Sequence record: OZ035760.1
Length of the DNA: 64,000 nucleotides
Reading direction: 5' to 3' (one strand)
Source: Tequatrovirus NIC06P2
Shown here: positions 22,820 through 60,954 of the stretch, one piece after another
Layout: every line of letters begins with the position of its first letter
How positions within the stretch are numbered: position 1 is the stretch's first letter
Notes under the pieces: model-generated
Told to the model about the DNA's origin: nothing
Seen by the model: the letters and a program-made list of their open reading frames with translations, nothing else
Database searches by the model: none
Program-made: the position numbers and the translations under genes

Positions 22820-23056
22820 TTAACCACCTATTTCTGTTGGCGTAAACATTGCAGCATTCTTAGTTTTCCAGTCAGCTGCATCAGAAACTACAGTAGAATA
22901 TGCTGCCTTTTCAGAAGGAAAGGTCTGATAATGAGAATCTGCAATACGATGCTCGTTAGAATAGATTTCAAACGGAACAGAAACTTCCATACCTTTAACT
23001 TCTTTGCCTTCACCTGCTGGATGAGTAAAGGTCTTGATGTTAACGAAACCGCCCAT
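22820..23056 (-). CDS. soc: small outer capsid protein Soc
   Basis: 78 aa; AGGAG Shine-Dalgarno; HYQTFPSEKAAYSTV segment matches T4 Soc from memory. Confidence 0.85.
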   Translation of the reverse strand: MGGFVNIKTFTHPAGEGKEVKGMEVSVPFEIYSNEHRIADSHYQTFPSEKAAYSTVVSDAADWKTKNAAMFTPTEIGG

Positions 23057-23090
23057 AATAAACTCCTTTATTGTTTAATTACAGGTGTAT

Positions 23091-23927
23091 TTATAAACCA
23101 TTTTCAAATCTCTTTATCATGTTTATATAATTTTCGTCAGGATAACCTAGGCTAACTGCTAACTTTCTAAAATTGACATATTTAGGTTTGTTGTTATTAA
23201 TCCATAATTCTCTAAGCTCTTTTTCATAATTCCATTTAAGTTGATTTCTGCGTGCAATTTTGCTTAAAGTTTTTCCTTTAGCTTTTAAAGCTTTTTCAGA
23301 TGACTGTTTTAATTTTTGAATATTTAAAACTTCTTCTATAGATAAATTATTTTCCTTTGAATATCTTATGCAAAAATCTTTTACTACGGCTATTAGGCAA
23401 TTTTTGTGAGTACCTAAAATTTCTGGATTATTTTCTTCAACTAAAATTCCCCAATATCTTCGATAGCGAGGCATATCCCTTGAAATCCAGTCATTATACC
23501 AAAAATCAAAGTTGGAATACATGAAAGATTTTCTTTTGCGAAGAGTATCTTGGTTTATCCATTGCTCACGTTTATCAGCCCATAACTTAATAGTAAAGTC
23601 TTTCTCTAAGTCAGAAAGCTTCTTAAATTGCGAGCTATTTACTGAGGTCATTCTCTGGAATGCATTCAGCAATCCAAATCTTCCAGTTGAACATAAGAGA
23701 TAGTGAACATATATGTGTTGATATATTGGGAGATATACTCTATTCCAAGGATATGTTTTAAAATCACTGTACTCAGGAAATGCGCATTTAGGAAGTATAT
23801 GATGGGCTTCTGTTTTAGATTTAATGTGAGTGTTTAACTTATACTTATCTATAATTTTTAAATACTCATCTAAAAGTTCCCATTGCGGGAACTTTTCTTT
23901 AAGAGCAGATTTGAAATTAATATCCAT
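23091..23927 (-). CDS. putative HNH homing endonuclease (free-standing)
   Basis: HNH-like motif EAHHILPKCAFPEYSDFKTYPWNRVYLPIYQHIYVH; ATG lies within the last codons of gene 56; C-terminal GYPDENYINMIKRF module shared with ORF 59252..59971. Confidence 0.65.
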   Translation of the reverse strand: MDINFKSALKEKFPQWELLDEYLKIIDKYKLNTHIKSKTEAHHILPKCAFPEYSDFKTYPWNRVYLPIYQHIYVHYLLCSTGRFGLLNAFQRMTSVNSSQFKKLSDLEKDFTIKLWADKREQWINQDTLRKRKSFMYSNFDFWYNDWISRDMPRYRRYWGILVEENNPEILGTHKNCLIAVVKDFCIRYSKENNLSIEEVLNIQKLKQSSEKALKAKGKTLSKIARRNQLKWNYEKELRELWINNNKPKYVNFRKLAVSLGYPDENYINMIKRFENGL

Positions 23928-24435
23928 TATCTTGACGTTCAAAATTATGTTTGTTCTTCAGATAATAAAGTTTAAAGATTTCTTCTGCTGTAAGACCAAG
24001 ACCTTGGAACATGTTCAGAACAAAATGAAGAATATCAATCATTTCGAATTTAATTTCTAACTGATCCTGTGGAGACAAATCAGTAATCAAAGTTTCACGG
24101 CGTTCACCATGCTGCGACTTCCAAGGTTTCCATACAGCAGATGCATCTTTTTCGCCATTGCTCATACCGCCAAGAGAAGTTAGAAGTTCGCGGAATTCAT
24201 CATCAATATAATCTTTCTGATTACGCAGCCAATCAACAACTTCACCTGCGGTAGCCAAATCATCAGGATGACGGTTATATTCAGGTTTATCTTTAGCTAA
24301 ACGAATCTGTAAAGATTTCTGCATATCAAGCATTACCTGCAGCGGGTCTTTTTCATCACCGAGAATATCCCAATATTCATTTTGAGCTTTATCAGCGCCT
24401 TCGATCAGTTGACTACATTCGTTGAAATGTGGCAT
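23917..24435 (-). CDS. 56: dCTPase / dCTP pyrophosphatase
   Basis: 172 aa vs 171 in T4 gp56; MazG-like EExxE region; between soc and 61. Confidence 0.88.
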   Translation of the reverse strand: MPHFNECSQLIEGADKAQNEYWDILGDEKDPLQVMLDMQKSLQIRLAKDKPEYNRHPDDLATAGEVVDWLRNQKDYIDDEFRELLTSLGGMSNGEKDASAVWKPWKSQHGERRETLITDLSPQDQLEIKFEMIDILHFVLNMFQGLGLTAEEIFKLYYLKNKHNFERQDNGY

Positions 24436-24471
24436 GTTATTTTTCCTTTCAATTCATGGGTTAGTAGATTA

Positions 24472-24495
24472 ATTATACAATAAATATATAAAGCA
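24472..24495 (-). promoter_or_regulatory. MotA-dependent middle promoter for gene 56 (MotA box TGCTTTA, 11 nt, TATAAT)
   Basis: reverse complement TTGCTTTATATATTTATTGTATAAT. Confidence 0.55.
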
Positions 24496-24508
24496 ATAAG
24501 GAGGACAT

Positions 24509-24709
24509 ATGGTACAAAAATTAATGGCACTTGTTAATGCCATAAAAGGTAATAAGAAACGTATAGCTTTTACTATTTCTGCTATGGTAGGAATTTTACT
24601 CTGGAACTTTATTCTATCACCTGTTGCAATTGCACATGGTATTAATATTCCAGTAGTTACTCTTGATACATTTGTAGATTTAGCATTTGCTTTAGTTGGG
24701 TTGATTTAA
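24509..24709 (+). CDS. small membrane protein (66 aa) on plus strand
   Basis: strong Shine-Dalgarno AAGGAGGA 4 nt before ATG; MVQKLMALVNAIKGNKKRIAFTISAMVGILLWNFILSPVAIAHGINIPVVTLDTFVDLAFALVGLI; opposite strand to flanking genes. Confidence 0.5.
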   Translation: MVQKLMALVNAIKGNKKRIAFTISAMVGILLWNFILSPVAIAHGINIPVVTLDTFVDLAFALVGLI

Positions 24710-25734
24710 ATCTTAGCATATTTAGATAGCCGCATTTTAGCCATCAACCCCTGTGCAATATTATTTTTCATATATTCCATAATTTGTTCAGGGGTTGCAC
24801 CTTCCTTTCTAATCATATCATTAACATCTTTTGATTTCCAGGGAGATTTATCCCAAAACATAACCCTTTCTCCTGCATCAACTAATTTAGTCATTCGTTT
24901 AATAGTGTCAGGGTGACGAGGTTCATTATCTAAAACCCACACTCGTCTATCTTTAAATGGAACAACTTCTAGGTCTAATTGACCACCCGTAATAGCTATA
25001 CCATTTTCAATAAAAAGTGAATCTATAGGTCCTTCTAGAACATATACATCACCATCTTTAACTCGTTCGACTCCATAGATTTTTGTTGCCTCAGGATAAG
25101 CTTTGATGGTGATATATTTTTGAGGAGCATCTTTCTTTAATGCGCGTCCTTGAAAAGACTCAGCTTTTCCATTAGCATTATAAATTGGAATAACAAGACG
25201 AGGCTCAGAAATTTCCTTTTTATATGTTCCCGGTGCTATGCTATTAACCAATTTAGGCCATTCGGTTGTAAACCAAAGATATTTCCATTTATCCTTTGGA
25301 ATACAACGAGCTTTTACATATTTTATAATTGGATGGTCTTCCGCCAGTTTATCTAATCTAACACATGACGGAAGAGATTTAATTATTTTCTTCTCAGGTT
25401 GTTTAGGAAGTTCTTTAGGTTTTTCTACTGGACGACTTTTACCTTTTTCTTTTCTTATTTCAAAGATATACTCACGATATAAATCAGGTTCAAACTCCTT
25501 TAAATATATTCCGATTGGTGCATGATAGTTACAGTTATAACAATGAATATTTCCTTCATTATTATCACCATAATACCATCCACGAGCTTTATTCTGGTCT
25601 GTTTTTGAATCTCCACAAACAGGGCATCTAAACCGTAATTTAAAAGTTGAACTATTATTTACTTGTGTGAATTTAGGTAAATGAGCTAATGCACGGTATG
25701 CGAACTCATTATCAATCCAAGGTATTGATGACAT
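24706..25734 (-). CDS. 61: DNA primase
   Basis: 342 aa as T4 gp61; N-terminal zinc-binding CPVCGDS...CYNC; TOPRIM-like region. Confidence 0.92.
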   Translation of the reverse strand: MSSIPWIDNEFAYRALAHLPKFTQVNNSSTFKLRFRCPVCGDSKTDQNKARGWYYGDNNEGNIHCYNCNYHAPIGIYLKEFEPDLYREYIFEIRKEKGKSRPVEKPKELPKQPEKKIIKSLPSCVRLDKLAEDHPIIKYVKARCIPKDKWKYLWFTTEWPKLVNSIAPGTYKKEISEPRLVIPIYNANGKAESFQGRALKKDAPQKYITIKAYPEATKIYGVERVKDGDVYVLEGPIDSLFIENGIAITGGQLDLEVVPFKDRRVWVLDNEPRHPDTIKRMTKLVDAGERVMFWDKSPWKSKDVNDMIRKEGATPEQIMEYMKNNIAQGLMAKMRLSKYAKI

Positions 25735-39287: not shown

Positions 39288-39338
39288 AGTTCCTCCGTAT
39301 AAATATGTTTATCACTCGCTGTATCAAAAGGATATGTT

Positions 39339-59251: not shown

Positions 59252-59971
59252 TTAGGATTCTTCTAAATGTCTTTTCTGAAAAGTTGATACCATACTACGA
59301 TACGGTTCATTTGGATATCCGTGTTTTATAGCTTCCTTTGTAAATTTTCTCCATCCATATTTAGTTTCTTTCCAAAGCTCGAATAATTCATCTTCATACT
59401 GCCATATAGTTAAATGAGAACGCTTTGCAGCTTTAATTCCATTAATATGCTTTTCTTTTACTGTAGGATTGCTTAGTTTCTTTTTAATAATATTACTAAC
59501 TTTTCTAACAAAAACTGGGTCCTTATATCGTTGCGAAGTTTTTATTGAAGTGTTTAATTTAGCTTCCGGCGTGGATGTGACCTCTTTCATCTTTTTCTTC
59601 ATATGCTGTATATGATTAGGATTTTTCCATAAATTTATAGAATGCTTTTTGCATTTTATCCTAGTTTCATCTGCAACCTTTCCTCCTTCACCCCCGTATG
59701 ACAGGTTAACACAGTTTTTTCCATATTTCAATTTACCTGCCATGATATATAATATTTCAGCTTGTACCATTTTATCATAATTATCAAAAACTTCTAAAAC
59801 CGTTTTTGATAATATGTGGTCATTTGACACTTTTACACGTTCTATATAATTTCCACTACCAACATACGAATCATTGATGTTATTAGTTATATGTCGACCA
59901 TAATAGTATTTCTTAATACCTGTCTTTAAATTTAATATTTCAGTTTTATAGATAGTAAAATATTTTTTCAT
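59252..59971 (-). CDS. putative GIY-YIG family endonuclease (Seg-like)
   Basis: N-terminal FTIYKTEILNLKTGIKKYYYGRH ... YVGSG ... NLSYGG resembles the GIY-YIG core; basic repeat-rich C-terminus; C-terminal GYPNEPYRSMVSTF module shared with HNH ORF 23091..23927. Confidence 0.5.
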   Translation of the reverse strand: MKKYFTIYKTEILNLKTGIKKYYYGRHITNNINDSYVGSGNYIERVKVSNDHILSKTVLEVFDNYDKMVQAEILYIMAGKLKYGKNCVNLSYGGEGGKVADETRIKCKKHSINLWKNPNHIQHMKKKMKEVTSTPEAKLNTSIKTSQRYKDPVFVRKVSNIIKKKLSNPTVKEKHINGIKAAKRSHLTIWQYEDELFELWKETKYGWRKFTKEAIKHGYPNEPYRSMVSTFQKRHLEES

Positions 59972-60954
59972 TTTAATAATACCGTTTCAGCAATTTCTTC
60001 CCAATGGTTTTTGTCGGTCATAATAAAGTCAGCAAGATAAAGAGCAGTACGCAGTGAAACATTGCGTAAACGATTAACATTGACTTTCATCCATGATAAT
60101 GCTTTATAAGTTTCTTCATCAGAAAGACCGCGCTTTTGCATCATGTCGGTTGAAAGAATAACATCTTCAACCCTGACCATAATTTCTTCATTAGTGTGAA
60201 CACCCAAATCCAAATAAACTGAGCGGGACACTAATGCTTGTAAATGTGGAGCAAGTTTAGTACCACGGTCTAATTCGCGGTCAATATCAACGTTTGTGAT
60301 AAAAACAATCGTTCCTTTAAATTCAAACTCACGCTCAATGCCTTTTTCTTCTAAGTAAGAAGATGCAGTGCTCCAGCAGACTTTACGGGTCTCTCCAGTG
60401 TCCAGAGCAGCTTTCAGAAGATTAAGAATGTCCATATCAGAGAAAACATCCACATCATCAATCAAAAGGACAGAATTCTCTTCACGATTATTCCAAAGCT
60501 GTTCATAAAGACCGATACCAGAGATTTTACCATTAATGCTTTTATACTCAATGTATCCAATATCATTTGCTTTATTCAAAGCTTTATCTAAAGAATACGT
60601 TTTACCAATACCTGCTGCTCCCGAGATAATTAATGAACGAATGTTTCCGTTAATAATACCATTCGTCATCATTCCCATAACATTAAATCTTTTATTAATG
60701 CGGGTTTTCATATCTTCATATGATTCTTTAACTTCTTCAACTTTTACACCATCATATGAAATGTCTGATTTGTAAACCCAAACACCGCGACGCTTACCGT
60801 CAATTTCAACAAAAACTTTACCATCTCCTTGTGCATCTACCGGAGCATTATCTGGGAACCATTCACCTAAGAGCTCAAAAGTTCCAGAGATTTCTTTACC
60901 GAAGTAGATACCCTTATTGATAGTTACAGTTTTCATTTTATTCTCCAATCTCAC
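59968..60954 (-). CDS. P-loop NTPase, AAA-like (328 aa)
   Basis: Walker A GAAGIGKT, Walker B LLIDDVD, putative sensor FITN; ATGA overlap with downstream endonuclease gene. Confidence 0.6.
   Translation of the reverse strand: MRLENKMKTVTINKGIYFGKEISGTFELLGEWFPDNAPVDAQGDGKVFVEIDGKRRGVWVYKSDISYDGVKVEEVKESYEDMKTRINKRFNVMGMMTNGIINGNIRSLIISGAAGIGKTYSLDKALNKANDIGYIEYKSINGKISGIGLYEQLWNNREENSVLLIDDVDVFSDMDILNLLKAALDTGETRKVCWSTASSYLEEKGIEREFEFKGTIVFITNVDIDRELDRGTKLAPHLQALVSRSVYLDLGVHTNEEIMVRVEDVILSTDMMQKRGLSDEETYKALSWMKVNVNRLRNVSLRTALYLADFIMTDKNHWEEIAETVLLK

What the first reader, a model, noticed from the sequence alone, without database searches (positions are those of the whole stretch)
23091..23942. 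HNH-type endonuclease gene occupying the soc-56 junction and overlapping the 3' end of gene 56
The ORF start (ATG at 23927, or an upstream TTG at 23942) lies inside the last codons of the dCTPase gene 56. The protein has an HNH-like HH...N...H...H core. In T4, from memory, this junction carries a GIY-YIG endonuclease (segF), so here a different nuclease family appears to occupy the same site. That would be an example of independent invasion of the same locus.
Basis: partly seen in the sequence, partly recalled or inferred. Interest (0 to 1): 0.55.

Follow-up and report, generated by a model that had tools for sequence, protein, structure and literature searches.

The report
Mob-type HNH homing endonuclease gene
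Between the dCTPase gene 56 and the capsid gene soc, this T4-like phage carries an intact, mobile HNH-type homing endonuclease gene in the slot where T4 has the unrelated GIY-YIG enzyme SegF; this is a clear but expected example of selfish nuclease genes swapping in and out of one site.

Summary
A 278-codon ORF (23091..23927, minus strand) starts at an ATG 11 nt inside the end of gene 56. It stops at the TAA inside the soc late promoter TATAAATA.

The protein is a relative of T4 MobD. It has an N-terminal HNH-like domain with H42, H43, N62, H71 and H75 invariant among 40 relatives. It also has a roughly 50-residue C-terminal DNA-binding module.

T4 has GIY-YIG segF in the same slot, with the same 11-nt overlap. 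T2 has two small ORFs there instead.

About 30 sequenced phages from at least four genera carry the HNH gene at this junction. It is 85-98% identical across genomes whose flanking genes are only 67-80% identical, and dN/dS is about 0.1. It is therefore under selection and has moved horizontally, together with the last roughly 40-70 nt of gene 56.

"Independent invasion" needs qualifying:
- Both endonuclease genes use the same start codon and stop inside the same promoter.
- T4 and this window are 100% identical over the last 69 nt of gene 56.
- The C-terminus of SegF is a distant copy of the same DNA-binding module.

Exchange of gene cassettes through shared flanking sequence fits at least as well. 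The kind of event is already documented (SegH/Hef replacing mobC/mobE), and databases already annotate the gene. This is a new member of a known kind, of modest interest.

The parts
23091..23927 (-). Free-standing Mob-type HNH homing endonuclease gene (278 aa plus stop)
   Evidence: ORF. PHROG 655 'homing endonuclease' 1e-33. T4 MobD BLASTP E 9e-11. Orthologues sit at the same junction in about 30 phage records. dN/dS 0.07-0.16.
23616..23927 (-). N-terminal nuclease domain (residues 1-104). The predicted beta-beta-alpha core is residues 39-79 (23691..23813), with H42, H43, N62, H71 and H75.
23373..23516 (-). Middle region (about residues 138-185), apparently a degenerate second copy of the C-terminal module
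   Evidence: It aligns to the C-terminal module of MobD at E 0.004. The match to the module HMM is weak (independent E about 1). Model confidence here is low (pLDDT 50-70).
23103..23252 (-). C-terminal module of about 50 residues, presumed to bind DNA (W..Y..EL..LW..NKPKY..FRK.AV..GYPD..Y..M...F)
   Evidence: The module matches independently, often in tandem copies, in 44 stretches of related proteins. MobD has it. A GIY-YIG ORF in the same window has it. SegF orthologues match the module HMM at E 6e-7 to 9e-5, against a noise level of 0.58.
23917..23927 (-). 11-nt overlap ATGGATATTAA: the endonuclease start codon lies inside the last codons of gene 56 (D-N-G-Y-stop)
   Evidence: The same overlap and sequence are found for T4 segF. 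The overlap is 11 nt in PhiZZ23, SmallBear, KM16 and DK-13.
23917..23985 (-). 3' tail of gene 56 that travels with the endonuclease gene. The allele-specific part is 23917..23952, encoding KHNFERQDNGY*.
   Evidence: 100% identical to T4 over 69 nt. The last 70 nt are 94% identical to SmallBear, where the rest of gene 56 is 75% identical. Phages without an endonuclease gene mostly have AENFARQDRGY*, which lacks the ATG.
23872..23896 (-). Terminator-like hairpin 31 nt into the ORF: AAAAGUUCCC-GCAAU-GGGAACUUUU
   Evidence: RNA fold, z -3.26. The sequence is identical in all six orthologues compared. T4 segF has an analogous hairpin of different sequence at a similar offset. That hairpin is described as an intrinsic terminator in PMC2988022. 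fPS-2 annotates a terminator at this position.
23088..23095 (-). soc late promoter TATAAATA; its TAA (23091..23093) is the stop codon of the endonuclease ORF
   Evidence: It is one of only 2 TATAAATA sites in 64 kb, where about 10 are expected. The homologous site is annotated as a late promoter in SA20RB. segF in T4 also stops inside it.
24472..24494 (-). Probable T4-type middle promoter (GCTT-N13-TATAAT) upstream of gene 56, the likely source of the transcript that also carries the endonuclease gene
   Evidence: Sequence. The homologous site is annotated as a middle promoter in SA20RB and fPS-2. No promoter of its own was found for the endonuclease gene.
23917..24435 (-). Gene 56 (dCTPase), the upstream host gene and the likely target gene
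22820..23056 (-). soc (small outer capsid protein), the downstream host gene

Best explanation
This is a free-standing homing endonuclease gene of the T4 Mob (HNH) type, most similar in architecture to MobD. It sits in the gap between gene 56 and soc of a Tequatrovirus.

Shown here:
- The gene is intact and under purifying selection.
- It has an HNH-like catalytic motif and a modular C-terminal domain.
- It has been transferred between T4-like phages of several genera as a unit made of the last roughly 40-70 nt of gene 56 plus the ORF. The unit ends at the soc late promoter.

Inferred expression:
- The gene has no promoter of its own, so it is probably transcribed by read-through from the gene 56 promoter.
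- A terminator-like hairpin 31 nt into the ORF probably attenuates that transcript.
- Translation is probably at a low level, by coupling or re-initiation at the ATG that overlaps the end of gene 56. This is as proposed for segF and mobE.

Inferred action:
- During mixed infection the enzyme nicks or cuts the homologous region of a co-infecting phage that lacks it.
- Recombinational repair then copies the endonuclease gene and the adjoining gene 56 tail into the recipient. This is intronless homing with localised marker exclusion.

Inferred target:
- The target is probably close to the insertion point, either the AENFARQDRGY-type tail of gene 56 or the junction between 56 and the soc promoter.
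- That is the only stretch that consistently differs between carriers and their closest non-carriers.
- The imported tract does not extend further into gene 56.
For: Identity:
- PHROG 655 at 1e-33 and PHROG 12434 (HNH) at 4e-10.
- MobD BLASTP E 9e-11 over 259 columns, and hhalign 97.7%.
- Invariant H42, H43, N62, H71 and H75.
- The confident N-domain model places these residues on a strand-strand-helix unit.
- Relatives carry NUMOD3, NUMOD1 and I-HmuI NUMOD-like modules.

Mobility:
- Orthologues at the same junction occur in about 30 of roughly 780 records that match this region. The genera include Tequatrovirus, Moonvirus and Gaprivervirus, plus Klebsiella phages.
- The SmallBear endonuclease gene is 97.6% identical to the window copy. 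Its primase is 67%, the body of gene 56 is 75% and soc is 70% identical.
- The corresponding figures are 92% against 69-79% for KM16, and 85% against 69-82% for DK-13.

Selection: dN/dS is 0.07-0.16 in all three parts of the protein.

Linkage of the gene 56 tail:
- All six carriers compared have KHNFERQDNGY.
- PhiZZ23 has a T2-type gene 56 body (95-100% identical to T2) but the window-type tail, endonuclease gene and soc.

Regulation:
- 11-nt overlap.
- Hairpin with z -3.26, invariant in six orthologues.
- No late promoter other than the soc one.
- The parallels for segF and mobE are described in PMC2988022.
- Nicking by MobA and MobE is stated in the same review.
Against: Weak or missing family evidence:
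- No curated HNH profile (Pfam, NCBIfam) matches this protein or any of 40 relatives.
- MobD itself is only marginal to Pfam HNH (E 0.003, below the cut-off).
- Sequence search of the PDB found nothing.

Untested function:
- No activity, target site or homing has been tested for this gene.

Weakness of the target-site inference:
- The review states that free-standing endonucleases cut hundreds to thousands of bp from their gene. That fits poorly with a target at the junction.
- The KHNFER tail also occurs with segF in T4 and phi1_146055. A related QHNFERQDNGY tail occurs in two phages with an empty site (L007, L016). The tail is therefore not unique to this gene.
Confidence: 0.85

Rival explanations
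1. Serial replacement instead of independent invasion. One endonuclease gene first created the slot: a start codon in the gene 56 tail and a stop in the soc promoter. The other gene later displaced it by recombination in the shared flanks. On this reading the two are successive tenants of one cassette site and compete for it.
For: - The left junction is identical to the nucleotide (ATGGATATTAA), and both genes stop inside TATAAATA.
- T4 and the window are 100% identical over the last 69 nt of gene 56, against about 75% in the gene body.
- Both genes have an internal 5' terminator-like hairpin.
- Replacement of mobC and mobE by SegH and Hef is a documented precedent (PMC2988022).
Against: - segF in other genera sits behind different gene 56 tails. 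One is the common AENFARQDRGY tail, used with a GTG start. segF therefore does not need the tail linked to the HNH gene.
- Selection to keep gene 56 and the soc promoter intact would by itself restrict viable junctions to nearly the same nucleotides.
- The direction and order of events cannot be inferred.
Confidence: 0.4
2. The gene is a no-longer-mobile remnant or a domesticated gene. It would be kept because it now carries signals the host needs: the gene 56 terminator, the soc late promoter and the gene 56 stop context. Alternatively it may serve another role, such as DNA binding or exclusion of competitors.
For: - The soc late promoter and a terminator-like hairpin lie within the ORF.
- The review notes that embedded host signals favour retention of endonuclease genes.
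- No activity data exist.
Against: - dN/dS of about 0.1 extends over the nuclease domain and covers the catalytic residues.
- 97.6% identity across genera, against 67-75% for the flanks, indicates recent horizontal spread.
- Empty sites show that the host signals work without the gene.
Confidence: 0.1
3. segF and this gene are one lineage in which only the nuclease domain was swapped in situ (GIY-YIG for HNH), keeping the original DNA-binding domain and target.
For: - They share the first three codons.
- The C-terminus of SegF matches the module HMM built from relatives of this protein, at E 6e-7 to 9e-5.
- The review calls segF a 'hybrid' endonuclease.
- A GIY-YIG ORF in this same window carries the same module at 39% identity.
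Against: - The C-terminus of SegF is closer to the modules of other Mob-family proteins (P0063 at 7e-8, P0072 at 3e-6). In that phmmer search this ORF did not appear among the listed hits.
- Direct BLASTP between the two proteins gives E 0.069 over 26 residues.
- There is no nucleotide similarity beyond the 11-nt overlap.
Confidence: 0.05

Closest known systems
T4 MobD (free-standing HNH-family homing endonuclease, nrdC.11/mobD.1 site)
   Same: - Same architecture: an N-terminal HHI(L/I)P...N...H...H nuclease domain and a C-terminal W..LW..(N/R)PK..F....GYP..Y module.
- Alignable over nearly the full length (25% identity, E 9e-11).
- Both are promoter-less, lie in the same orientation as their neighbours, and overlap or abut the upstream gene.
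   Different: - Different genomic site and therefore presumably a different target.
- Only 25% identical.
- This protein has an extra, degenerate internal copy of the module.
- According to the 2010 review, the activity of MobD has not been determined.
T4 SegF (GIY-YIG; gene 69), between 56 and soc
   Same: - Same slot, same ATG and same 11-nt overlap with gene 56.
- Stop codon inside the soc late promoter.
- Terminator-like hairpin in the 5' end of the ORF.
- A distant copy of the same C-terminal module.
- SegF targets gene 56 and excludes T2 gene 56 (PMC2988022 Table 1 and PMC2330249).
   Different: - Unrelated catalytic domain: GIY-YIG against HNH.
- No sequence similarity outside the overlap and the module.
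- GIY-YIG enzymes make double-strand breaks, whereas the Mob enzymes tested so far nick.
- From memory only, the SegF cut site lies a few hundred bp inside gene 56. The paper could not be retrieved.
T4 MobE and MobA, and I-HmuI (HNH homing enzymes with shown activity)
   Same: - HNH-type free-standing or intron-encoded nickases that are over-inherited in mixed infection.
- mobE also overlaps its upstream gene and has an internal 5' terminator.
- RB43 'MobE' matches residues 2-121 at 32% identity, E 6e-5.
   Different: T4 MobE and MobA were not detected by tblastn at E 1e-3; only MobD was found in T4. Their sites (nrdA/nrdB and 60.1/39) and C-terminal domains are different.
SegH and Hef replacing mobC and mobE (Sandegren, Nord and Sjoberg 2005, as cited in PMC2988022)
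   Same: Precedent for endonuclease genes of different classes occupying the same intergenic site, or targeting the same gene, in different T-even phages.
   Different: A different locus (the nrd genes). The original paper could not be read here, so details of the junctions could not be compared.

Membership tests
HNH (beta-beta-alpha-metal) nuclease superfamily | Conserved His (general base) at the end of strand 1, Asn before strand 2, and His or Asn metal ligand in the following helix | tested here: met
   H42 and H43, N62, H71 and H75 are invariant in 40 relatives. In the N-domain model (pLDDT 92.8) they lie on strand 39-43, just before strand 63-67, and on helix 68-79.
HNH (beta-beta-alpha-metal) nuclease superfamily | Match to a curated HNH profile (Pfam PF01844 and related models; NCBIfam) | tested here: not met
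   No Pfam or NCBIfam hit for the ORF. No HNH model was hit by any of 40 relatives. T4 MobD reaches only E 0.003, below the cut-off. PHROG 12434, labelled 'HNH endonuclease', does match at 4e-10.
HNH (beta-beta-alpha-metal) nuclease superfamily | Structural similarity of the catalytic core to solved HNH enzymes | tested here: inconclusive
HNH (beta-beta-alpha-metal) nuclease superfamily | Divalent-metal-dependent DNA nicking or cleavage | not testable with these tools
   Needs purified protein.
T4 Mob-type free-standing homing endonucleases | Sequence homology to a named Mob protein | tested here: met
   MobD BLASTP E 9e-11 and hhalign 97.7%. tblastn hits to proteins annotated as MobD, MobE or Mob-like in many T4-like phages.
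T4 Mob-type free-standing homing endonucleases | N-terminal nuclease domain fused to a separate C-terminal DNA-binding region | tested here: met
   The N-domain (residues 4-130) and the C-terminal module (residues about 200-276) match different proteins independently. Relatives carry NUMOD modules.
T4 Mob-type free-standing homing endonucleases | Located between conserved genes, in the same orientation, and optional among close relatives | tested here: met
   The gene lies between 56 and soc. At this site T2, SA20RB and many IMG/VR loci instead have small ORFs, nothing, or segF.
T4 Mob-type free-standing homing endonucleases | Evidence of horizontal movement (gene more similar than its flanks) | tested here: met
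   85-98% identity for the endonuclease gene, against 67-82% for primase, the body of gene 56 and soc, in three genera.
T4 Mob-type free-standing homing endonucleases | Site-specific cleavage of the endonuclease-less allele and super-Mendelian inheritance in mixed infection | not testable with these tools
   Needs experiments. A target near the gene 56 tail is inferred only.
GIY-YIG Seg endonucleases (SegF) | N-terminal GIY-YIG catalytic domain, or homology to SegF | tested here: not met
   BLASTP against SegF gives only 26 C-terminal residues at E 0.069. tblastn with SegF finds no match in this ORF's orthologues. There is no GIY...YIG motif in the sequence.

The most novel reading that the evidence does not exclude
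The 56-soc gap may be a single 'cassette slot' whose start codon and stop codon are supplied by the host, and for which HNH and GIY-YIG endonuclease genes compete. The HNH enzyme would cut the common AENFARQDRGY tail of gene 56, or the junction itself. The KHNFERQDNGY tail that travels with the gene would then be its immunity allele. The byte-identical tail in T4 would be a footprint showing that the segF-bearing T4 lineage passed through, or recombined with, an HNH-bearing genome. That would be direct evidence for serial turnover of homing endonuclease genes at one site.
Probability: 0.25. Interest if true: 0.5.

Novelty: new member of a known kind. Interest (0 to 1): 0.3.

Why it matters
The finding adds a well-defined natural example to the biology of homing endonuclease genes in T-even phages. 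Two unrelated nuclease families use the same host-supplied start and stop signals at one intergenic site. There are also clean natural before-and-after genomes: T2 and SA20RB, empty-site phages, T4, and this phage.

This makes three questions directly testable:
- How one endonuclease gene displaces another.
- Whether the linked tail of gene 56 confers immunity.
- How far marker exclusion around gene 56 depends on which gene occupies the slot.

It does not change current understanding. Occupation of the same site by different classes of endonuclease gene, and the modular shuffling of their DNA-binding domains, are already described.

Tried and rejected
Searches that found nothing useful:
- Pfam and NCBIfam on the ORF gave nothing relevant. 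Pfam on 40 relatives gave no HNH model, only NUMOD motifs.
- Sequence searches of the PDB with the protein and with the family profile gave nothing.
- The word-indexed protein search found just 3 proteins. The exhaustive HMMER search was needed to find the family.

Ideas tested and dropped:
- segF descends from this gene in situ. Not supported.
- The hypervariable patch of gp56 (residues 106-123) is the target or immunity site. Rejected, because the window and the non-carrier SA20RB are identical there while the other HNH carriers all differ.
- An RNA structure masks the soc ribosome-binding site in read-through transcripts. The fold is no better than shuffled sequence (z 0.17).
- The small hairpin that pairs the endonuclease AUG is functional. 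My reading of the KM16 tail sequence suggests two of its pairs would be broken there, but this was not computed, so the hairpin is not claimed as functional.
- The T4 tail must come from an HNH-bearing donor. Weakened, because a Klebsiella phage with segF also has a KHNFERQNNGY tail.

Papers that could not be read: Belle et al. 2002 (SegF) and Sandegren et al. 2005 (SegH/Hef) are not held in the library. The position of the SegF cleavage site therefore rests on memory only.
Full report
**1. What is in the sequence**

On the minus strand the window reads primase gene 61 (24706..25734), gene 56 dCTPase (23917..24435), a 278-codon ORF (23091..23927 from the ATG), then soc (22820..23056).
- The ATG at 23927..23925 lies 11 nt inside gene 56. 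The gene 56 stop codon is 23919..23917.
- The longer TTG start at 23942 is unlikely to be used. Annotated orthologues use the ATG. Relatives begin M-[D/N]-I. The TTG is not conserved, being TCG in KM16.
- The ORF ends at a TAA (23093..23091) that is part of the soc late promoter TATAAATA (23095..23088). This is one of only two TATAAATA sites in the 64 kb, where about ten would be expected.
- The window is a Tequatrovirus about 97% identical to ACG-C40 and fPS-2. It is not identical to any record in the collection.

**2. What the protein is**

Curated profiles do not recognise it. Several other lines of evidence place it in the Mob family:
- It matches PHROG 655 'homing endonuclease' (1e-33) and PHROG 12434 'HNH endonuclease' (4e-10).
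- An exhaustive HMMER search found 765 relatives. The N-terminal part (residues 4-130) and the C-terminal part (about 200-276) matched different proteins independently.
- In an alignment of 40 relatives, Y22, H42, H43, P46, N62, H71 and H75 are invariant.
- The protein aligns with T4 MobD over nearly its whole length (E 9e-11). hhalign gives 97.7% probability for the nuclease region.
- An AlphaFold2 model of residues 1-104 is confident (pLDDT 92.8). It puts the HH pair at the end of a strand (39-43), N62 just before a second strand (63-67), and H71 and H75 on the following helix (68-79). This is the beta-beta-alpha-metal layout.

**3. The C-terminal module**

Residues about 226-275 form a roughly 50-residue module: W..Y..EL..LW..NKPKY..FRK.AV..GYPD..Y..M...F.
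- The module recurs, often in tandem, in related proteins. It is present in MobD.
- The middle of this protein looks like a degenerate second copy (E 0.004).
- An HMM of the module, searched against 3341 six-frame ORFs from the window and the fetched loci, picks out SegF orthologues at E 6e-7 to 9e-5. The next hit is noise at 0.58. This matches the review's label of segF as a 'hybrid'.
- The same HMM finds a GIY-YIG, Seg-like ORF elsewhere in this window (59252..59971, minus strand). Its last 80 residues are 39% identical to this protein.

DNA-binding modules are evidently shuffled between the two nuclease families. However, the SegF module is closer to other Mob proteins than to this one. SegF is therefore not a simple derivative of this gene.

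**4. The junction compared with T4, T2 and others**

- T4 has segF between soc and 56 with an 11-nt overlap. T2 and SA20RB have two small ORFs (soc.2 and soc.1) instead.
- Among 40 IMG/VR loci encoding gp56, the gap holds nothing (31-45 bp), soc.1/soc.2, segF, the HNH gene, or other inserts of 160-600 bp.
- The HNH gene and segF start at the same ATG in the same sequence, ATGGATATTAA. They diverge completely right after the gene 56 stop codon. Both stop inside TATAAATA.
- Both also carry a terminator-like hairpin of different sequence 30-45 nt into the ORF. For segF and mobE this is described as an intrinsic terminator that limits expression.
- Most phages without an endonuclease gene end gp56 with ...AENFARQDRGY, which contains no ATG. 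All HNH carriers end with ...KHNFERQDNGY.
- T4 and the window are identical over the last 69 nt of gene 56, although the gene bodies are about 75% identical.
- Other segF carriers have KHNFERQNNGY, AENFERQNNGY, or the common AENFARQDRGY with a GTG start. Two empty-site phages have QHNFERQDNGY.

**5. Evidence that the gene moves**

- Orthologues with at least 80% protein identity occur in about 30 records. In the six high-identity rows shown, gene 56 lies under the match. In every locus fetched, the gene sits between 56 and soc. segF orthologues occur in about 60 records.
- Nucleotide identity to the window copy is 97.6% in the Klebsiella phage SmallBear, where primase is 67%, the body of gene 56 is 75% and soc is 70%. 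The last 70 nt of gene 56 are 94% identical there.
- For KM16 (Moonvirus) the figures are 92% against 69-79%. For DK-13 (Gaprivervirus) they are 85% against 69-82%.
- dN/dS is 0.07-0.16 and is similar in all three parts of the protein.
- PhiZZ23 is window-like in primase, the endonuclease gene and soc. Its gene 56 body is T2-type (95-100% identical to T2), with switches at the gene start and about 45 nt before the stop.
- The mobile unit is therefore the tail of gene 56 plus the ORF. Gene 56 itself is a mosaic.

**6. How it most likely works**

Shown here:
- An intact gene under selection.
- Horizontal transfer.
- Shared junctions and the anatomy of the signals around the gene.

Inferred from the Mob and Seg literature:
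- Transcription by read-through from the gene 56 middle promoter (GCTT-N13-TATAAT at 24494..24472). The homologous site is annotated in SA20RB and fPS-2.
- Attenuation at the internal hairpin.
- Low-level coupled translation from the overlapping ATG.
- Site-specific nicking of a co-infecting genome that lacks the gene, followed by recombination-dependent copying.

The position of the target is my own inference. The only sequence that always differs between carriers and their nearest non-carriers is the gene 56 tail and junction, and the imported tract stops there. The hypervariable patch of gp56 (residues 106-123) does not track presence of the gene. This argues for a target close to the insertion point. 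The argument is weakened by the general rule that free-standing enzymes cut far from their gene.

**7. Comparison with what is known, and novelty**

- RefSeq already annotates the gene as 'HNH endonuclease' or 'homing endonuclease' in several phages.
- Different classes of endonuclease gene at one site, or targeting one gene, are documented for the nrd loci: SegH and Hef in place of mobC and mobE. The same is reported for ICP1.
- I found no paper that describes this particular gene at the 56-soc junction.
- It is a new member of a known kind.

Details that seem new:
- Both endonuclease genes borrow the same host start and stop signals.
- The gene 56 tail is linked to the HNH gene.
- The T4 and window tails are identical.

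**8. Verdict**

'Independent' invasion is unproven, and cassette exchange is an equally good or better reading. Interest is modest.

Noticed in passing
window 59252..59971 (-): A second free-standing homing endonuclease gene, Seg-like GIY-YIG (PHROG 314, 2e-30). Its C-terminal 80 residues are 39% identical (E 9e-9) to the C-terminal module of the HNH ORF. One genome thus shows the same DNA-binding module on both nuclease families. It lies next to an ATPase-like ORF (59968..60954, PHROG 1250).
   Followed up: partly
L044 1349..4221 (same contig as L029; IMGVR_UViG_2974741249, 155,101 bp): A rearranged 56-soc locus. It contains a 45-aa fragment of gene 56, a 139-aa gene 56 with an internal deletion, and a chimeric ORF joining HNH residues 1-19 to gp56 residues about 49-172. 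It also contains an HNH gene that lacks its first 20 codons because of a frameshift. Both breakpoints fall at the terminator-like hairpin (…FPQWELL). This could be a recombination hot spot or an assembly artefact.
   Followed up: partly
window 24067..24120 (-), gp56 residues 106-123: A hypervariable patch in an otherwise conserved dCTPase, with 38-58% nucleotide identity between lineages in 40-nt windows. It does not correlate with which endonuclease gene sits downstream. Whether it is the SegF target or immunity region could not be checked, because the paper is not held.
   Followed up: partly
L045 (PhiZZ23) gene 56, compared with L053 (T2) and the window: The body of gene 56 in PhiZZ23 is T2-type (95-100% identical) within an otherwise window-like region. 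The switches fall at the gene start and about 45 nt before the stop. Gene 56 alleles appear to be exchanged as cassettes.
   Followed up: yes
window 24436..24705, and the homologous gaps in L001, L002, L048 and L053: The gap between genes 61 and 56 is also variable. T4 and T2 have dam there. fPS-2 and Mexia have another Mob-like HNH gene, and DK-13 has an endonuclease gene next to primase. This window has only a 66-aa plus-strand ORF (24509..24709, PHROG 2024).
   Followed up: partly
window, whole 64 kb; sites at 23088..23095 (-) and 39298..39305 (+): The T4 late-promoter motif TATAAATA occurs only twice where about 10 are expected by chance (all 100 shuffles had at least 2). This suggests avoidance of late promoters in this early and middle gene region. 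One of the two sites is the soc promoter.
   Followed up: no
window 23917..23931 and 23091..23105 (-): The end of gene 56 (GATAATGGATATTAA) and the end of the endonuclease ORF (GAAAATGGTTTATAA) match at 11 of 15 positions. Only 2 of 253 ORF ends in the window match the gene 56 end as well. This was noticed post hoc and is weak. It could be a remnant duplication of the gene 56 end or a coincidence.
   Followed up: partly
L054 1786..2640 (Shigella phage CM8; T6 matches at a similar map position): The nearest full-length paralogues (about 30% identity) sit between genes 47 and 46 in CM8. T6 and several other records give an equivalent match at a similar position, but their context was not fetched. 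T2 retains a half-length copy (residues 1-139). Members of this Mob subfamily occupy several intergenic sites next to DNA-metabolism genes.
   Followed up: partly
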